DNA of 64,000 bases, from positions 66,687-130,686 of the forward strand of contig JBHLOC010000005.1 of the NCBI GenBank assembly GCA_048940925.1, given 5' to 3'. Made by a program: the position numbers and the translations under genes. The notes beneath the pieces are model-generated. The model had not been told where the DNA came from. It did not search any database and saw nothing but the letters and a program-made list of their open reading frames with translations. This DNA comes from Promethearchaeota archaeon. GTDB taxonomy: Archaea > Asgardarchaeota > Lokiarchaeia > Sigyniarchaeales > SOKP01. Positions 5,061-41,771 of the stretch are shown one piece after another. The number at the start of each line of letters is the position of its first letter. Positions within the stretch are counted from its first letter, which is position 1.

Positions 5061-6113
5061 CTAGATTACCTGTTCAATTGGAATTTTCTTAATTGTATGA
5101 AAAGCAGCAGTTAGACATTTTTCTGCATCATTCACAATAGTATTGATTATATTGGATACACTCTCTACTCTTGTAATAAGTCCAATACTTTGCCCTATAT
5201 ATACAGTACCATCTTCAACATTACCTTCATAAGTCATTTCCAGTTCTGCTAGTTCCCTTTCTACATTGGACATCGAAGTCTCTCCAGCTCTTTTTTCTTC
5301 TTTACTTTTGACAAGTTCTTGGTTTTCAGCCCTTGTATTCTTCCATACCCTCGCAGGTCCAAAAATTCCAGTTTTTAGTTCAGTGTCAGAAGCAGTGGAA
5401 TGAATTACGACATTTTTATATTTTTCATGAAATTCACATTCTTTTGAAGCTATAAATCTGGATCCCATAGCAATTGCTCCTGCACCCATAGATATGGCAG
5501 AAGCTAAGCCTTCACCCGTGGCAAATCCTCCAGACGCAATTATAGGAACATTCGGTAATTCTTTTCTTATCTGTTGTAAAAGAACTAAAGTACTTACATT
5601 ATCATAGGATTGATGTCCTCCACCTTCAGTTCCAGTAATAATCAACCCATCGACTCCACTATTAACCAGTTTTTTAGCGAGATATGATGAAGGAGCAACA
5701 TGGAAATGCTTAATATTTGAACCACTCTCCTTTAATTTTTCAAAGTGTTTATTATAAATCATTCTTGGGGAACCTGCACTTGTAACTATATAGATACACT
5801 GTTCTTTTATTTTTGGATTTTCCATGATAAATCTTGGAAGTTGTCTGCACAATTTTATTGCATCTGGCTGTAATCTAGCCGTTCTGATGTTAAATCCGAA
5901 AGGCTTATCAGTATGTTCAACAACGTACTCCATACTTTTTTTCATTTCATCAAGAGTTATAGTTCCATGTAAAGTAACATGACTTAAAACACCTAATCCA
6001 CCTGCTTCAGATACGGCAACAGTTAATTTAGTAGTATAAAAAGGGCCCATTGGAGCACTTAATATTGGATGTTTAATCCCAAGCATTTTTGTAATATTCG
6101 TTTCGATTACCAT
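5061..6113 (-). CDS. Nitronate monooxygenase / FabK-like flavin oxidoreductase
   Basis: 'PILSAPMG', 'VSEAGGLG', 'GTEGGGH', 'IASGG' and 'MGSRF' motifs. Confidence 0.88.
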   Translation of the reverse strand: MVIETNITKMLGIKHPILSAPMGPFYTTKLTVAVSEAGGLGVLSHVTLHGTITLDEMKKSMEYVVEHTDKPFGFNIRTARLQPDAIKLCRQLPRFIMENPKIKEQCIYIVTSAGSPRMIYNKHFEKLKESGSNIKHFHVAPSSYLAKKLVNSGVDGLIITGTEGGGHQSYDNVSTLVLLQQIRKELPNVPIIASGGFATGEGLASAISMGAGAIAMGSRFIASKECEFHEKYKNVVIHSTASDTELKTGIFGPARVWKNTRAENQELVKSKEEKRAGETSMSNVERELAELEMTYEGNVEDGTVYIGQSIGLITRVESVSNIINTIVNDAEKCLTAAFHTIKKIPIEQVI

Positions 6114-6554
6114 TCTTAATCACTAACTTTTATTATAAAAGTCTTTAATTTATTAAATCAAATCTTCAATTAATAAATTAAATATTTAGTTATTTTTATC
6201 AACAGGTTATTTATAAAACTTTTACATGAAAACACAATATCAAAAGTATGAAATTTTAAGAGATATTATTAAAAATTTTTATAAATTTTATTAAATATGA
6301 AAATTTAGGTAATCTTATTAAAATAAATAGTGCTATTTTATTCAAGCAGAAGGATTTTCGAATTCAAACAAATTTCTTCAATCAATTTCAATCTGAAACT
6401 TCTTATTTTATGTGAAAATTGTAAGATGGAACGAGAAAAATTAGTGAATTATCAAGTTAAATAATAAATACTTCTTAGAAGGTTAAGATTTTTTCAAATT
6501 TATTAGAAGATGGCATAAATTCATTAATTATTATACATTTTTAATAACTATTAC

Positions 6555-38015: not shown

Positions 38016-39110
38016 TTAAATTCTTCTTTTACGCCACCAATAAATTGCAAAAGCAAAAGCTAATCCAATAGAAACCAAGACTATAAACAAAATCCAGTAG
38101 TTAAACTCAACCATCCAAATTTCTTTTGATAAACTAGATAAACTGGGCTCAAGTATTTTTAAAGCTGCAAAAGCATAATAAGAATCTATTACTGAAGATG
38201 ATGATTGCTCAAATCCTTCAATTATGTCGGTAAAGCCCCCATCTTGAAAATTTTGCCTAGATAGTATCCATCTTGTTGTTTCCGTTTTATTCAATTCAAT
38301 ATTTCCTATTAAAGATAGGGTTTTTACACAATAATAAGTACTACTTAATAAAGAATGTTTAGCATTATTATCAGGTAAATATCCTCCATAATTGTCTGGA
38401 TCTGCATTGTTGGCCACATAGAATGATTTAAGAAAACTTGAGGTTTGATTAAGATTTGTAATGGCACTTAAATTTCCCAGCTCATTCAGTATAGATATAG
38501 CGTGAAAAGTACTAATTATTGTAGAGACTAAACTAATATTTCCACCATATCCTCCATCATTATTGTAAGTAGATAAAACCCAATCAATATGAAGATTTTT
38601 ATTTTCTATTGGTTTATTTATTAAAGAAAATATTTGTGTAACATAGTAAGTTGAACTTAAACTTACTGAAGATGAAGCATTTGAAAACGCAAAACCACCA
38701 CTGCTTTGTTCTGTTTCATTGAGATATTTGTAAATTTTGCTTATTAAATCTTCTTCAAGGGAATAACCTAAAGAATCTAAAGAACTTAGAATGTAAGAAA
38801 GATCATATAAATTTACAGAATCTTGATCAATCATATCTTCTATTCTTTCTTCTAAATATTCTTGAAGTAATTCTTCTTCATGAGGATTTCTCCCAAAATG
38901 ATCTAAAATATTCAAAGCACAAGCAGTTGCTTCAAAAGAAACTCTACTGTTATTAGAAATAGCATTTGAAAATCCTTCACCCTCTATTTCTGTATTAAAG
39001 ATGAAGTTTACTAAGTATGTATTTCTTGTTCTTCCAAAAACACTCGGAATTATACTTATTGTCAAAAAAAATATTAAAAGAATCACAATAAAATTCCGTT
39101 TGCTTTTCAA
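38016..39110 (-). CDS. Secreted, membrane-anchored prenyltransferase/squalene-oxidase-repeat protein
   Basis: Signal peptide, five 'GGF/Y...ST(Y/F)' repeats (e.g. 'SRQNFQDGGF'), C-terminal TM and 'WWRKRR'. Confidence 0.75.
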   Translation of the reverse strand: MKSKRNFIVILLIFFLTISIIPSVFGRTRNTYLVNFIFNTEIEGEGFSNAISNNSRVSFEATACALNILDHFGRNPHEEELLQEYLEERIEDMIDQDSVNLYDLSYILSSLDSLGYSLEEDLISKIYKYLNETEQSSGGFAFSNASSSVSLSSTYYVTQIFSLINKPIENKNLHIDWVLSTYNNDGGYGGNISLVSTIISTFHAISILNELGNLSAITNLNQTSSFLKSFYVANNADPDNYGGYLPDNNAKHSLLSSTYYCVKTLSLIGNIELNKTETTRWILSRQNFQDGGFTDIIEGFEQSSSSVIDSYYAFAALKILEPSLSSLSKEIWMVEFNYWILFIVLVSIGLAFAFAIYWWRKRRI

Positions 39111-39263
39111 TTAAAAAAACCTAAGTCAGATTATTTAAATTTTTAATTTTTTAAATTTATCTTGAAATTAAAAATTATCTATCAGAGGAACCTAAAGAAT
39201 TGTTTTATTTCAACATAATTTTAAAAAAGATTTTATTAATAAAGAAATATAAATCTCAATATT

Positions 39264-40790
39264 TTAAAGGATTTCACTAATGTCTCGATATAATAAATCC
39301 TTATTAGATTGAAATTGTTCATGTGAAATAAAAAGTTGTTGAAATGAAGCTAAACTTCCCAATACAGCAGCACCTATAAAGATTGCAAACTGAAGATTAT
39401 CAGGAACAAAAAATTTAAGAACTTTACTTGATTCTGAAAGATATTCAGTAAACTCTTGAGCTGCAGTTTTCTCATCTAAATCTTCAGAACCTGTGGTTTT
39501 TTCTAGACCCTCCATAGATCTTCCACAATACGGGCAAAATAGTGAACTAATATCAGCAATTTCTTTTTTGCAATAAGGACATTTCCCTGTCTCTGTTTTT
39601 GAACCCTCTTTTTTAGTTGCTAAATCAATTTTTATTTCAGGCAAGATTAATGTTCCACCACATTCAGGACAATATTCCTTTCCGTCAGATATATCAATAG
39701 TTGCCCCACAATGGTGACATGTGTCTTTATCTTTTCTTTTCGAAGTCTCCACTGCTTTGAGTTTTAATAAATCATTTTTAACAGTAGATAATGTCGGTTT
39801 AGGTCTAGGAATTGGGCCAAGTTGAGGCAAAATTACATTTAGTTCGCTTTCAAATCTTTCTTCAAAACCACTATATGAGAGATTCCCTCCTGAAAATACA
39901 ATATGAGATAAAAGTTCGTGCCAATAATTCTTATCAAGAACTTTTAAGCAAGCGATTACAGCCTGAGGAATATTCATTACATTACTATAACCTACCATTC
40001 CAGGATTAAACAGAGCTTCAGGAGCTTGATGAAGGATATAATTAGGGATATTTATAGTTGATCCATCAGGCATAGAAACAGTAAAAGTCTCACTCACGTT
40101 TGGTGGTTTATTTGGATCTAAAATAAAATAACAATTTTTTTCCTTAATATCTTGGATAATTTCATCAGCAGCACTCGATGCTATACTAATTCCTTCTCTC
40201 ATTAATAAATTTTTTAGATTATGATTAACATCTACTCCAGCAAGAGGTATTTTTTGAACAGCATGTTGTATTATTTGGCCATTTACTATCGGTACGATCC
40301 AAGTTAGACCATCTCCTGATTCGATCACTAACCCTGTCGTTAATCCAACACTAAATAATGATAATAAGGGTGTTGGCATCATAATTAGACTTTTTACACG
40401 ATGAGTTTCAAAAAAAAGCCTTGCTATATATTCTTTGGTTTCTTTTTGTATAAATGGAGGTTCACAATAGAATACCGGATAATCTGCTAAATTTTCAACT
40501 CTTAATAAGGAATAAAAAATATAGTTCAATATTTCATAAAATGCTTCCCAGTCCATAATATTACCCCTATTAAGGGGATGTTTAATCTTGAGAACTCCAC
40601 GCATCTTAGCAGCATCTTGCCCTACATATATACTCCTAGCACTTACATCTACCATAACAGATTTATATTTTTCAGTACCAGTTATACAAGGAAATACAAA
40701 TCTAGGAGTGGGTTCTCCCGCAAAACCAATTTTCACATAAGCAGAGCCTATATCAATAATAATTGGTGTTCCAGGTGATGGTAAAGCCAT
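39264..40790 (-). CDS. Actin-related protein with double zinc-ribbon insertion
   Basis: 'IIIDIGSAYVKIGFAGEPTPRFVFP', 'IKHPLNRGNIMDW', 'TTGLVIESGDG', 'IKEKNCY', 'PEALFNP', 'IVFSGG' and 'FIGAAVLGSL'; four CxxC pairs inserted. Confidence 0.93.
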   Translation of the reverse strand: MALPSPGTPIIIDIGSAYVKIGFAGEPTPRFVFPCITGTEKYKSVMVDVSARSIYVGQDAAKMRGVLKIKHPLNRGNIMDWEAFYEILNYIFYSLLRVENLADYPVFYCEPPFIQKETKEYIARLFFETHRVKSLIMMPTPLLSLFSVGLTTGLVIESGDGLTWIVPIVNGQIIQHAVQKIPLAGVDVNHNLKNLLMREGISIASSAADEIIQDIKEKNCYFILDPNKPPNVSETFTVSMPDGSTINIPNYILHQAPEALFNPGMVGYSNVMNIPQAVIACLKVLDKNYWHELLSHIVFSGGNLSYSGFEERFESELNVILPQLGPIPRPKPTLSTVKNDLLKLKAVETSKRKDKDTCHHCGATIDISDGKEYCPECGGTLILPEIKIDLATKKEGSKTETGKCPYCKKEIADISSLFCPYCGRSMEGLEKTTGSEDLDEKTAAQEFTEYLSESSKVLKFFVPDNLQFAIFIGAAVLGSLASFQQLFISHEQFQSNKDLLYRDISEIL

Positions 40791-40894
40791 GTGGTATCAA
40801 TTTTAAATATTTTTTTCTACTTCTTAATACTTATCAGATATTTTGAGTATAAATAGTTTTATTTTTATTTTATTATAAATAAGAATTCTTTTAA

Positions 40895-41317
40895 TTATTT
40901 TTTCATATATTTAAAAAGGATTTGAAGAATCTCATTCTGTAAAACCAGACCAATAAGTTCATTACTTTCATTTACCACTGGAAGGCGTTGTATTTTTTTT
41001 TTTAACATTTTTTCTAATACATGCATTAATGTATCATTTTTTTTTACAACAAAAGGCTCTGAAGTCATCAAATCTTTAACTTTTGTATTAGGAGATTCTA
41101 AACTCATAGCAAATCTTGCTAGACGAATATCTCTTTGTGTGATAATGCCAATTAACTCTTTTGTTTTAGAATCTTTTACAACAGGAAGTCCTCCTATATT
41201 TTTTCTTACCATTAAAAGTTCTGTTATGCTGATTTTCTCATCTGGGGTTATGTAGACAGGATTTTTAATCATAACGTCTGTTACTTGGATTTGGCTGAAT
41301 TGTTCTAAGCGGTCCAT
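40895..41317 (-). CDS. CBS-pair protein
   Basis: 'IGGLPVV...LIGIITQRDI' and 'IQRLPVV...LIGLV'. Confidence 0.9.
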   Translation of the reverse strand: MDRLEQFSQIQVTDVMIKNPVYITPDEKISITELLMVRKNIGGLPVVKDSKTKELIGIITQRDIRLARFAMSLESPNTKVKDLMTSEPFVVKKNDTLMHVLEKMLKKKIQRLPVVNESNELIGLVLQNEILQILFKYMKK

Positions 41318-41381
41318 GATTGAAAATTTGTTTTTTTAATTAATACGATAAAAATTAATAATTTGTGAAATTAAAATTTAT

Positions 41382-41771
41382 TTATTCGTGTGCTCTTACT
41401 TTTTCTCCAAGTTTTCGTTCAATTTTTTCAATTTCGACCAAATAATCATTATAAGTTTTCAAGAGATAGTGACCCCAATTATTTAATTTTATCCAACCTC
41501 CACCACCACTTCCTCCTTTACCCGTTATCACTACAGACATCCCTGTTCTTTTTTCAATTCTTTTTAAAATATTCCATGCATATTTATAGGAATAATTACA
41601 CTCTTTAGCTGCTTGAGTTAATGATCCATCTTTATTTCTTTCAATATTTTCAAGTAATTTAGCCCAGCCTGTACCTAAAATACTTTTATTCTCAAATTTT
41701 AACCAAAATTTTATTCCATAACTGATTTTAGATTTTAATATTTCAATATTAGGTTCATTTTCAGTTAGCAT
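41382..41771 (-). CDS. ModE-like winged-helix regulator (no molybdate-binding domain)
   Basis: 'GSLTQAAKECNYSYKYAW' and 'GGSGGGG..L' motifs. Confidence 0.85.
   Translation of the reverse strand: MLTENEPNIEILKSKISYGIKFWLKFENKSILGTGWAKLLENIERNKDGSLTQAAKECNYSYKYAWNILKRIEKRTGMSVVITGKGGSGGGGWIKLNNWGHYLLKTYNDYLVEIEKIERKLGEKVRAHE

What the first reader, a model, noticed from the sequence alone, without database searches (positions are those of the whole stretch)
39264..40790. Actin-related protein with a ~125-aa double zinc-ribbon insertion
Seen: the protein aligns by eye with actin end to end, with phosphate loops DIGSAYVK and ESGDG. Between 'LPQLGPIP' and 'KVLKFFVPDNLQFAIFIG' (actin's 'KIKIIAPPERKYSVWIG') it carries CHHC-CPEC and CPYC-CPYC ribbons on flexible linkers (about 39430-39810). 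The D-loop region looks short. Known: eukaryotic Arps gain specialised functions through insertions. Inference: a specialised Asgard Arp acting as an adaptor, nucleator or capper, which links actin to ubiquitin-like proteins, nucleic acid or membrane partners through the zinc ribbons rather than forming ordinary filaments.
Basis: partly seen in the sequence, partly recalled or inferred. Interest (0 to 1): 0.78.

Follow-up and report, generated by a model that had tools for sequence, protein, structure and literature searches.

The report
Lokiarchaeal actin relative with zinc-ribbon insert
This gene encodes a real actin-like protein, kept by almost every member of one order of Loki-type Asgard archaea, that lacks actin's key ATP-splitting glutamine and has one or two small zinc-binding modules on flexible tethers in a loop that actin uses to stack into filaments; its function is untested and I found no paper describing the insert.

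Summary
ORF 39264-40790 (-) encodes a 508-aa actin-fold protein. A ~131-aa insert with two Cys4 zinc ribbons on low-confidence linkers sits in the actin 322-325 loop. One detail is wrong: the D-loop is not short.

It is not a chimera. Insert-bearing orthologues form one clade and occur in 152 of 153 sampled genomes of one Asgard order. One of them is the 'Ca. Lokiarchaeum ossiferum' ARP UYP44711.1, matched through published qPCR primers.

Phosphate loops are kept. Actin Gln137 is always Thr/Ser/Ala and His161 is usually replaced. The protein evolves far faster than lokiactin. Pointed-face elements stay actin-like, while the subdomain-3 barbed face is remodelled.

A new point here: the gene is almost always followed by a type-I membrane glycoprotein with a short basic tail that usually ends in -RI.

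My best reading is a sub-stoichiometric, hydrolysis-poor Arp that docks on lokiactin and tethers a partner. Binding was not tested, and the ribbon ligand is unknown.

Five differently worded literature searches found no description of the insert. This scan has noted the same family before in at least 43 other genomes, with concordant follow-ups.

The parts
39264..40790 (-). Arp-DZR gene: 508-aa actin-family protein with a zinc-ribbon insert
   Evidence: ORF. Pfam Actin 232.8 bits and DZR 33.5 bits. More than 120 homologue clusters of 501-510 aa with the same architecture.
39822..40790 (-). Actin core, N-terminal part (aa 1-323): subdomains 1, 2, 4 and most of 3
   Evidence: Aligns to actin residues ~6-323. 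pLDDT ~90. Foldseek TM-score ~0.9 normalised to actin targets.
40731..40754 (-). Phosphate-1 loop DIGSAYVK (aa 13-20). The equivalents of actin D11 and K18 are invariant.
   Evidence: D and K are present in all members examined.
40629..40679 (-). D-loop region (aa 38-54). It is full length, keeps a V-M-V triplet and is the most conserved segment of the family.
   Evidence: No gap against yeast actin. Majority-residue frequency 0.90 against 0.83 for the core. Model pLDDT 58, so it is flexible.
40371..40373 (-). Thr140, the equivalent of actin catalytic Gln137
   Evidence: Ungapped alignment block. T/S/A in all members, Q in lokiactin.
40299..40322 (-). Phosphate-2 loop ESGDG (aa 157-161) followed by Trp164, the equivalent of actin His161
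   Evidence: W in all 44 proteins of the ~508-aa type; W/Y/T/S/F/N/H across the order.
39726..39821 (-). Insert linker 1 (aa 324-355): basic (+6), variable in length between lineages
   Evidence: pLDDT below 50 over aa 333-353. Conservation 0.65. Length variation shown.
39651..39725 (-). Zinc ribbon 1 (aa 356-380): DTC-x2-CG...CP-x-CG, net charge -4. It is present in every member.
   Evidence: Cysteines invariant. Conservation 0.79. Pfam DZR/Zn_ribbon hits.
39585..39650 (-). Conserved hydrophobic LPEIKI strand (aa 381-388) followed by variable linker 2 (aa 389-402)
   Evidence: Conservation 0.74 for the strand and 0.35 for the linker. pLDDT below 50 over aa 384-399.
39516..39584 (-). Zinc ribbon 2 (aa 403-425): CP-x-C...FCPYCG. 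It is absent in family f32, in the L. ossiferum orthologue and in the metagenomic relative P0125.
   Evidence: Pfam Zn_ribbon_3 33.4 bits over aa 403-423.
39420..39515 (-). Acidic linker 3 (aa 426-457), which contains the conserved A-x-E-F/Y motif (aa 442-450, DNA 39441-39467)
   Evidence: The Glu is invariant and the aromatic residue nearly so, even at 23-35% insert identity. The motif was found in 19 of 22 order-wide members. pLDDT below 50.
39264..39419 (-). Actin core, C-terminal part (aa 458-508 plus the stop codon): the subdomain 3 strand and the subdomain 1 helices that line the hydrophobic cleft
   Evidence: Aligns to actin ~326-364. pLDDT ~90. The cleft segment has conservation 0.89 and 0.40 identity to lokiactin.
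38016..39110 (-). Conserved downstream neighbour: a type-I membrane protein with a signal peptide, a Prenyltrans-type alpha/alpha-toroid ectodomain (7 N-glycosylation sequons), a C-terminal TM helix and the basic tail WWRKRRI
   Evidence: Pfam Prenyltrans 64.8 bits. It follows Arp-DZR on the same strand in nearly all loci across four families. Tail conservation is shown.
40895..41317 (-). Upstream CBS-pair protein (140 aa). It is a neighbour in most loci of the window's family and in L012, but not across the whole order.
   Evidence: Pfam CBS 102.9 bits. Synteny.
41382..41771 (-). Upstream small winged-helix protein (129 aa) with a weak LysR/ModE-type HTH match. It lies upstream of Arp-DZR in families f1 and f2.
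   Evidence: Pfam HTH_1 at E 5e-4, below the cut-off. tblastn synteny.

Best explanation
Arp-DZR is an order-specific, single-copy actin paralogue (an Asgard 'ARP'). It very probably binds an adenine nucleotide but hydrolyses it poorly, because the phosphate loops are intact while the Gln137 equivalent is never Gln and the His161 equivalent is usually replaced. Its pointed face stays actin-like: this includes the D-loop and the subdomain-4 P-D-G element. Its hydrophobic cleft is also kept. The subdomain-3 side of the barbed face is remodelled. Two contact elements there have diverged, and the third (actin 322-325) carries a 101-214-aa, mostly acidic, flexible tether with one or two zinc ribbons and a conserved A-x-E-F/Y motif. 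I infer that it works sub-stoichiometrically. It would dock by its pointed face onto a lokiactin barbed end or barbed-face cleft, and would not be the bulk polymer. The ribbon tether would then hold a non-actin partner. The leading candidate for that partner is the short basic cytoplasmic tail of the type-I membrane glycoprotein encoded immediately downstream. This remains a weak candidate. If correct, the protein would link actin filaments to the membrane. Shown here: the fold, the insert anatomy, the substitutions, the distribution, the evolutionary rate and the gene pairing. Inferred: nucleotide behaviour, lokiactin docking, capping geometry and the identity of the partner.
For: Fold and insert.

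Single origin: 16 insert-bearing proteins form one clade (SH-aLRT 100) on 380 core columns.

Distribution: an insert-only profile hits 133/134, 14/14, 1/1 and 4/4 genomes in the four families of the order. The best hit outside the order is not an actin.

Catalytic site: the Q137 equivalent is T/S/A in all members. The H161 equivalent is W/Y/T/S/F/N, with H in 3 of 22. D11 and K18 are invariant.

Evolutionary rate: identity to this genome's copy in five genomes is 100/99/99/96/90% for lokiactin, 92/78/75/61/50% for the 373-aa Arp and 86/65/55/53/38% for Arp-DZR.

Face asymmetry: pointed-face elements are 0.55-0.60 identical to lokiactin, against 0.34 for the whole core. The subdomain-3 element 283-294 and the W-loop are 0.17 identical.

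Insertion site: actin residues 322-325 contact residues 243-245 of the adjacent subunit (PMC7247010).

Expression: all three published L. ossiferum ARP primers match a closed 6.0-Mb genome exactly, and the UYP44711.1 primer lies inside the insert-bearing gene. The paper reports lokiactin transcripts as severalfold higher than those of the other homologues (PMC9834061).

Partner gene: it follows Arp-DZR in 11 of 12 extra loci from three other families, and in the earlier loci down to 37% identity. In 13 of 19 orthologues its 6-8-aa basic tail ends in -RI. No other of 262 C-terminally anchored ORFs in this genome ends in [RK]RRI.

Insert charge: usually acidic, between -2 and -29.
Against: The hydrophobic cleft on the barbed face is conserved, so a further subunit's D-loop could still bind, and polymerisation is not excluded. 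The linkers are flexible, so the insert need not block the interface. FolD and a small winged-helix gene are conserved in the same array, so gene order alone does not prove a functional link to the membrane protein. That protein's toroid domain is extracellular, and only ~7 residues face the cytoplasm. A Thr or Ser at the Gln137 position might still support slow hydrolysis, and three members keep His161. The face comparison rests on few residues and on numbering transferred by alignment.
Confidence: 0.45

Rival explanations
1. Arp-DZR forms its own homopolymeric filament, or co-polymerises along the whole length of lokiactin filaments. The zinc ribbons would project from the filament surface as docking sites. 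It would be a second actin-like cytoskeletal system rather than an end-binding or adaptor subunit.
For: The actin fold is complete, with a full-length and very conserved D-loop. The hydrophobic cleft is conserved: cleft helix 0.92 and subdomain 1 segment 341-355 0.89. Flexible linkers could route the insert out of the interface. The gene is near-universal and single-copy in the order.
Against: The Gln137 equivalent is replaced in every member and the His161 equivalent in 19 of 22. The protein evolves much faster than lokiactin, and faster than the other Arp. Two subdomain-3 longitudinal contact elements have diverged and the third is interrupted. In L. ossiferum, transcript levels of the ARPs are severalfold below lokiactin.
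Confidence: 0.2
2. Arp-DZR is a non-cytoskeletal, nuclear-Arp-like subunit. It would be a monomeric, nucleotide-bound actin fold inside a nucleic-acid or transcription-linked complex, with the zinc ribbons contacting DNA, RNA or a polymerase/ribosome component.
For: The weak similarities of the ribbons are to ribosomal eL43 and bL32, Nop10, RNA polymerase subunit P and NOB1 (E about 1e-3 to 1e-1). A small winged-helix gene is conserved upstream. Eukaryotic nuclear Arps are hydrolysis-poor and are defined by their insertions (established knowledge). Earlier notes of this scan describe a separate Heimdall-group actin with a basic N-terminal zinc ribbon (not tested here).
Against: The insert is not basic. 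Net charge is -2 here and down to -29 in relatives, and ribbon 1 is -4. The PDB similarities are generic and barely significant, and Foldseek found nothing at E <= 0.001. The conserved D-loop and pointed-face elements point to an actin-type contact.
Confidence: 0.1
3. Arp-DZR is a nucleotide-sensing scaffold unrelated to lokiactin. It would work with its conserved neighbours, for example by regulating the biogenesis or sorting of the downstream surface glycoprotein, with the CBS protein as an adenine-nucleotide sensor.
For: The array winged-helix gene, (CBS), Arp-DZR, toroid membrane protein, FolD is conserved. The membrane protein's tail is conserved and basic and usually ends in -RI, which resembles a recognition signal.
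Against: CBS is missing from the array in family f2 and in some f1 loci. Nothing links actin folds to protein sorting. Preferential conservation of actin's pointed-face contact elements is unexplained under this reading.
Confidence: 0.15

Closest known systems
'Ca. Lokiarchaeum ossiferum' actin homologue GenBank UYP44711.1, one of three 'ARPs' in Rodrigues-Oliveira et al. 2022 (PMC9834061)
   Same: It belongs to the same clade. The insert is at the same site. It lies in the same array of winged-helix gene, Arp, toroid membrane protein and FolD (L052). It was placed in a published actin tree and assayed by RT-qPCR, with lokiactin transcripts reported severalfold higher than those of the other homologues.
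   Different: It is 499 aa with only one zinc ribbon, followed by a long acidic helical segment (net -18). It keeps His at the His161 position. In the passages I searched, the paper does not mention the insert.
Lokiactin (for example this genome's 381-aa copy, L001; solved relative 'HC1 actin', PDB 9wc4)
   Same: The fold is the same, and HC1 actin is the best solved match (256 bits). Core identity is 38-39%. Phosphate loops, the D-loop length class and the hydrophobic cleft are shared.
   Different: Lokiactin has no insert: 18 against 149 residues between the same anchors. It keeps Gln137 and His161. It is 90-100% identical across the order, against 38-86% for Arp-DZR.
Eukaryotic actin-related proteins defined by insertions (Arp2/3, nuclear Arp4/5/8), and the ARPC1 insert of the Arp2/3 complex
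   Same: The principle is the same: an actin fold is specialised by a surface insertion. In ARPC1, a flexible insert delivers a helix with a conserved Phe into actin's barbed-end groove (PMC9295785). That is a possible analogy for the conserved A-x-E-F/Y motif here.
   Different: No orthology to any eukaryotic Arp is shown: the tree backbone is unresolved and the top 60 PDB sequence hits are all actins. I know of no eukaryotic Arp with zinc ribbons in this loop; this rests on my own knowledge and was not tested.
Pfam DZR (PF12773) and generic zinc ribbons
   Same: Two Cys4 knuckle pairs score above the gathering threshold, and all eight cysteines are conserved.
   Different: Here the module is inserted inside an actin fold, with the two ribbons structurally independent (pTM 0.23 when folded alone). 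No closer relative to a characterised ribbon was found.

Membership tests
Actin family (Pfam PF00022) | Full-length profile match above the gathering score | tested here: met
   232.8 bits against a cut-off of 27, matched as two stretches on either side of the insert.
Actin family (Pfam PF00022) | Four-subdomain actin fold | tested here: met
   The AlphaFold2 core has pLDDT ~90. Foldseek gives a TM-score of ~0.9 normalised to actin targets, E ~1e-34.
Actin family (Pfam PF00022) | Nucleotide-binding phosphate loops and adenosine motif | tested here: met
   The equivalents of D11, K18, G156, G158, E214 and G301/G302 are invariant. Actual binding is not testable here.
Filament-forming actin / lokiactin | Catalytic Gln137 and His161 | tested here: not met
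   Gln137 is T/S/A in all members. His161 is W here and variable across the order. Lokiactin keeps Q and H.
Filament-forming actin / lokiactin | Uninterrupted subdomain-3 loop 322-325, which contacts subdomain 4 of the adjacent subunit | tested here: not met
   A ~131-aa insert sits at this loop. The role of the loop is from PMC7247010.
Filament-forming actin / lokiactin | Extreme sequence conservation | tested here: not met
   38-86% for Arp-DZR against 90-100% for lokiactin in the same five genomes.
Filament-forming actin / lokiactin | Polymerisation into double-stranded filaments | not testable with these tools
   This needs biochemistry or cryo-EM.
A specific eukaryotic Arp orthogroup (Arp1-Arp10) | Phylogenetic placement inside that orthogroup | tested here: inconclusive
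   The backbone of the tree is unresolved and the representative sequences are unnamed. The best solved matches are actins, not Arps.
Asgard ARP clade with a zinc-ribbon insert (contains L. ossiferum UYP44711.1) | Monophyly on core columns together with an insert at the same site | tested here: met
   One clade with SH-aLRT 100. The primer maps inside the gene. The insert is at the same alignment position in all 22 members.
Pfam DZR, double zinc ribbon (PF12773) | Profile match above the cut-off and conserved Cys4 pairs | tested here: met
   33.5 bits against 27.3. All eight cysteines are invariant in 19 sequences. Metal binding itself is not testable here.

The most novel reading that the evidence does not exclude
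Arp-DZR is a prokaryotic link between membrane and actin. Its actin-like pointed face would cap or dock on lokiactin barbed ends. Its acidic zinc-ribbon tether would grip the conserved basic -RI tail of the co-encoded surface glycoprotein. Filament ends would thereby be anchored to the membrane and to cell-surface structures, foreshadowing the eukaryotic habit of pointing barbed ends at membranes.
Probability: 0.12. Interest if true: 0.85.

Novelty: new variant of a known kind. Interest (0 to 1): 0.62.

Why it matters
[quoted passage not shown] Only lokiactin, profilins and gelsolins have been studied so far, and the Asgard 'ARPs' have no known function. This ARP is nearly universal in the order that contains 'Ca. 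L. ossiferum', so it can be studied in culture. Its design suggests how an actin fold was turned into an adaptor before eukaryotes existed: hydrolysis residues are lost, one filament-contact face is preserved, and the other carries a tethered binding module. The conserved pairing with a membrane glycoprotein gives a concrete, testable candidate for how Asgard filaments connect to the membrane and to surface structures.

Tried and rejected
1. Assembly chimera: rejected. More than 120 homologue clusters share the architecture, and it is found order-wide.

2. Complex prediction of Arp-DZR with this genome's lokiactin: NOT FOLDED. There is no verdict of any kind on that pairing.

3. RNA evidence: no RNA holder was listed for window 38016-41771.

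4. ESM Atlas search with the insert alone: no usable hit.

5. Insert folded alone: the ribbons form (pLDDT 73-83) but have no fixed arrangement (pTM 0.23). Foldseek against the PDB found nothing at E <= 0.001. A profile search of PDB sequences gave only generic ribbon hits at E >= 8e-4. The ribbon ligand therefore stays unknown.

6. The first distribution query (insert plus C-terminus, E <= 1e-8) suggested restriction to one family. That was too narrow: whole-protein and profile searches found the diverged 489-566-aa forms in the sister families.

7. Weak profile hits outside the order (1e-6 to 1e-12): treated as generic zinc ribbons. Non-actin proteins in this genome reach 5e-9, and the best outside hit is a CarboxypepD_reg/RING protein.

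8. Co-loss test: G040 lacks Arp-DZR and the toroid neighbour, but it also lacks the flanking MBL gene. A whole segment is missing through a deletion or an assembly gap, so this is uninformative.

9. A donor for the insert elsewhere in the genome: none found.

10. I recalled an Arp3 insert at the same loop but could not confirm it in the library, so I do not use it.

11. No relation was seen between ribbon number and the neighbour's tail sequence.
Full report
OBSERVATION. The window carries a 508-aa ORF at 39264-40790 on the minus strand. Pfam gives Actin (232.8 bits, cut-off 27) and the double zinc ribbon family DZR (33.5 bits, cut-off 27.3, aa 358-423), plus several single-ribbon families. 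Against solved structures, the best match is the Asgard 'HC1 actin' 9wc4 (256 bits), followed by conventional actins (~228 bits). The match covers aa 5-323 and resumes at about aa 451-458. Between the same alignment anchors this protein has 149 residues and the genome's own lokiactin has 18, so the insert is about 131 aa (aa ~324-457, DNA 39420-39821).

An AlphaFold2 model built on a 51-sequence alignment has a confident actin core (pLDDT ~90). The two ribbons score 60-73 and the three linkers score below 50. Foldseek returns actins with TM-scores of ~0.9 normalised to the target. Folded alone, the insert gives two ribbons (pLDDT 73-83) with no fixed mutual arrangement (pTM 0.23). 'Ribbons on flexible linkers' is therefore a fair description. 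The region aligns to yeast actin without a gap and is the most conserved segment of the family.

NOT AN ARTEFACT: A CONSERVED FAMILY. More than 120 protein clusters of 501-510 aa share the architecture at 62-86% identity. Database names include 'zinc ribbon domain-containing protein', 'hypothetical protein', 'actin-related protein' and 'centractin'. All eight cysteines are invariant in a 19-sequence alignment. A search of 1.8 billion cluster representatives found more distant members of 486-576 aa, at 37-60% identity, with the insert at the same site.

On a tree built from 380 core columns, with the insert columns excluded, the 16 insert-bearing proteins form one clade (SH-aLRT 100, stem length 0.71). 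This indicates a single acquisition. The position of that clade among other actin-like proteins is unresolved.

DISTRIBUTION. My first genome survey used the insert plus the C-terminus at E <= 1e-8. It found the gene in 67 of 68 genomes of the window's family, in 1 of 7 genomes of a sister family, and nowhere else. That query was too strict. Whole-protein searches showed 553-566-aa insert-bearing forms in the sister family. An insert-only profile (A3) then hit 133/134, 14/14, 1/1 and 4/4 genomes in the four families of the order.

Hits outside the order are weak (1e-6 to 1e-12). I treat them as generic zinc ribbons for two reasons. Non-actin proteins in this genome reach 5e-9 with the same profile. 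The best outside hit is a CarboxypepD_reg/RING protein. The gene is single-copy. The NCBI labels on close homologues (Heimdall, Thor, Odin and others) conflict with this genome-based picture and probably reflect submitter taxonomy.

LINK TO A CULTURED ORGANISM. A closed 6.0-Mb genome in the sister family carries exact matches to all three RT-qPCR forward primers published for the 'Ca. Lokiarchaeum ossiferum' actin homologues (primers from PMC9834061). The primer for GenBank UYP44711.1 lies inside the insert-bearing gene. That gene encodes a 499-aa protein with one ribbon followed by an acidic helical segment.

The family has therefore already appeared in a published tree as an 'ARP'. Its transcription was assayed there, and the authors report lokiactin transcripts as severalfold higher than those of the other homologues. 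In the passages I searched, that paper does not mention the insert. Five differently worded full-text searches found no description of an actin with a zinc-ribbon insert (also 9 and 16). The library lacks many subscription papers, so this is 'not found' rather than 'never described'.

WHAT THE SEQUENCE SAYS ABOUT MECHANISM.

(1) Nucleotide site. The equivalents of actin D11, K18, G156, G158, E214 and G301/G302 are invariant. The Gln137 equivalent is Thr, Ser or Ala in every one of 22 order-wide members. The His161 equivalent is Trp in all 44 proteins of the ~508-aa type. Elsewhere it is W/Y/T/S/F/N, and His is kept in only three members. Lokiactin keeps both residues. From established knowledge of actin, Gln137 and His161 position and activate the hydrolytic water. 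I therefore infer nucleotide binding with poor hydrolysis.

(2) Rate. In five genomes of increasing distance, lokiactin is 100/99/99/96/90% identical to this genome's copy. The 373-aa Arp is 92/78/75/61/50% identical, and Arp-DZR is 86/65/55/53/38%. This is not the constraint pattern of a bulk filament former.

(3) Faces. In F-actin, subdomain-3 residues 322-325 contact residues 243-245 of the adjacent subunit (PMC7247010). That is where the insert sits. The pointed-face elements are 0.55, 0.60 and 0.57 identical to lokiactin, against 0.34 for the core. These are the D-loop, residues 61-65 and residues 241-247. They are also highly conserved in the family. On the barbed face, the W-loop and subdomain-3 residues 283-294 are only 0.17 identical and are less conserved. 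The hydrophobic cleft is retained. This asymmetry suggests docking by the pointed face onto another actin-type barbed face, with the protein's own barbed face altered. The sample of residues is small, so the argument is suggestive only.

(4) The insert. Ribbon conservation (0.79 and 0.73) approaches that of the core (0.83), while the linkers score 0.35-0.65. Insert length ranges from 101 to 214 aa. Ribbon 1 is always present. Ribbon 2 is missing in family f32, in L. ossiferum and in one metagenomic relative, P0125. A short A-x-E-F/Y motif just before the return to the core is conserved even at 23-35% insert identity. The insert is usually acidic, from -2 down to -29. That argues against nucleic-acid binding and is compatible with a basic partner. 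A published analogy for a flexible insert that delivers a Phe-bearing helix into actin's barbed-end groove is the ARPC1 insert (PMC9295785). Whether the EF/EY motif does this is speculation.

GENOMIC CONTEXT. The gene is followed on the same strand, after ~100-150 bp, by a gene for a Prenyltrans-type alpha/alpha-toroid protein. This holds in the window and in L006, L012 and L025-L028. In L007 one gene intervenes. It also holds in the distant short contig L010 (Prenyltrans above the Pfam cut-off) and more weakly in L011 (E 0.016 on a partial product). It holds in 11 of 12 further loci from three other families, including the L. ossiferum genome and a closed 4.36-Mb genome.

A small winged-helix gene usually lies upstream and FolD usually follows. 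A CBS-pair gene sits between the winged-helix gene and the Arp in most loci of the window's family and in L012, but not elsewhere.

The toroid protein has a conserved architecture. It has a signal peptide, an ectodomain with 4-9 N-glycosylation sequons, one C-terminal TM helix and a 6-8-residue basic tail. That tail ends in -RI in 13 of 19 orthologues and in -QI in two more. In this genome, none of the other 262 crudely defined C-terminally anchored ORFs ends in [RK]RRI, and only six end in any basic-x-I pattern. The tail ending is therefore a family-specific conserved feature.

This makes the tail the only concrete candidate ligand for the acidic ribbon tether. Conserved adjacency also includes FolD, so adjacency alone is weak evidence, and I could not test binding.

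VERDICT. The best-supported reading is a hydrolysis-poor, sub-stoichiometric Arp that engages lokiactin by its preserved pointed face and presents a tethered zinc-ribbon module to another partner (confidence 0.45). The membrane-tail partner is a lower-probability extension (0.12 as the full linker model). Three rivals remain open: a separate or co-polymer filament (0.2), a neighbour-linked scaffold unrelated to actin filaments (0.15), and a nucleic-acid-linked nuclear-Arp-like subunit (0.1).

Neither result bears on the question.

This scan has noted the same family before: 54 notes in at least 43 genomes, several with follow-ups that agree. I consulted those follow-up notes only after my own tests, and they match my results.
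- the rate comparison with lokiactin and the other Arp;
- the comparison of pointed-face and barbed-face conservation;
- the order-wide table of ribbon number, catalytic residues and insert charge;
- the conserved EF/EY motif;
- the order-wide pairing with a membrane glycoprotein that has a conserved basic -RI tail.

Noticed in passing
window 38016-39110 (-): The downstream toroid membrane protein gives a sub-threshold Pfam match to the Ribophorin II N-terminal domain (E 2e-4, 21.5 bits against a cut-off of 23.4), alongside Prenyltrans. Its best solved relatives are RabGGTase beta subunits, and only weakly (E ~7e-4). It could be a eukaryote-like surface or lumenal module and may deserve its own look.
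   Followed up: partly
L001 (G000:C40) and L002 (G000:C7); also G276:C48:2620-3762 and 5381-6490: This genome has two lokiactin genes scoring 441 and 430 bits against the Actin profile. A congener carries two copies about 1.6 kb apart on one contig, 100% and 94% identical to L001. This looks like a recent lokiactin duplication in the genus.
   Followed up: no
L003 (G000:C34, 373 aa) and L005 (G000:C10, 392 aa): The two other Arp-like paralogues also lack actin's catalytic pair. By alignment, the 373-aa Arp has Asp at the Gln137 position and Arg at the His161 position. The 392-aa protein is very divergent, with a long branch in the tree.
   Followed up: partly
G225:C102:13366-13931: In one congener, the Arp-DZR gene is split into frames of 426 and 113 aa with in-frame stop codons. 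This is either a pseudogene or a sequencing or assembly error.
   Followed up: no
L009 1-2181: In one distant relative (P0122, 48% identity), the Arp-DZR gene lies four genes downstream of Vps4 and an ESCRT-II gene. I saw this in only one locus, so it is probably coincidental.
   Followed up: no
window 41382-41771 (-): A 129-aa winged-helix protein with a Gly-rich GGSGGGG loop and a weak LysR/ModE-type HTH match lies upstream of Arp-DZR in two families of the order. It may be the local regulator.
   Followed up: partly
one search hit list: Close homologues at 72-77% identity are labelled in NCBI as Heimdall-, Thor-, Odin-, Hod- and Hermodarchaeota. The genome-based survey places the family in a single order, so the MAG taxonomy labels look unreliable.
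   Followed up: no
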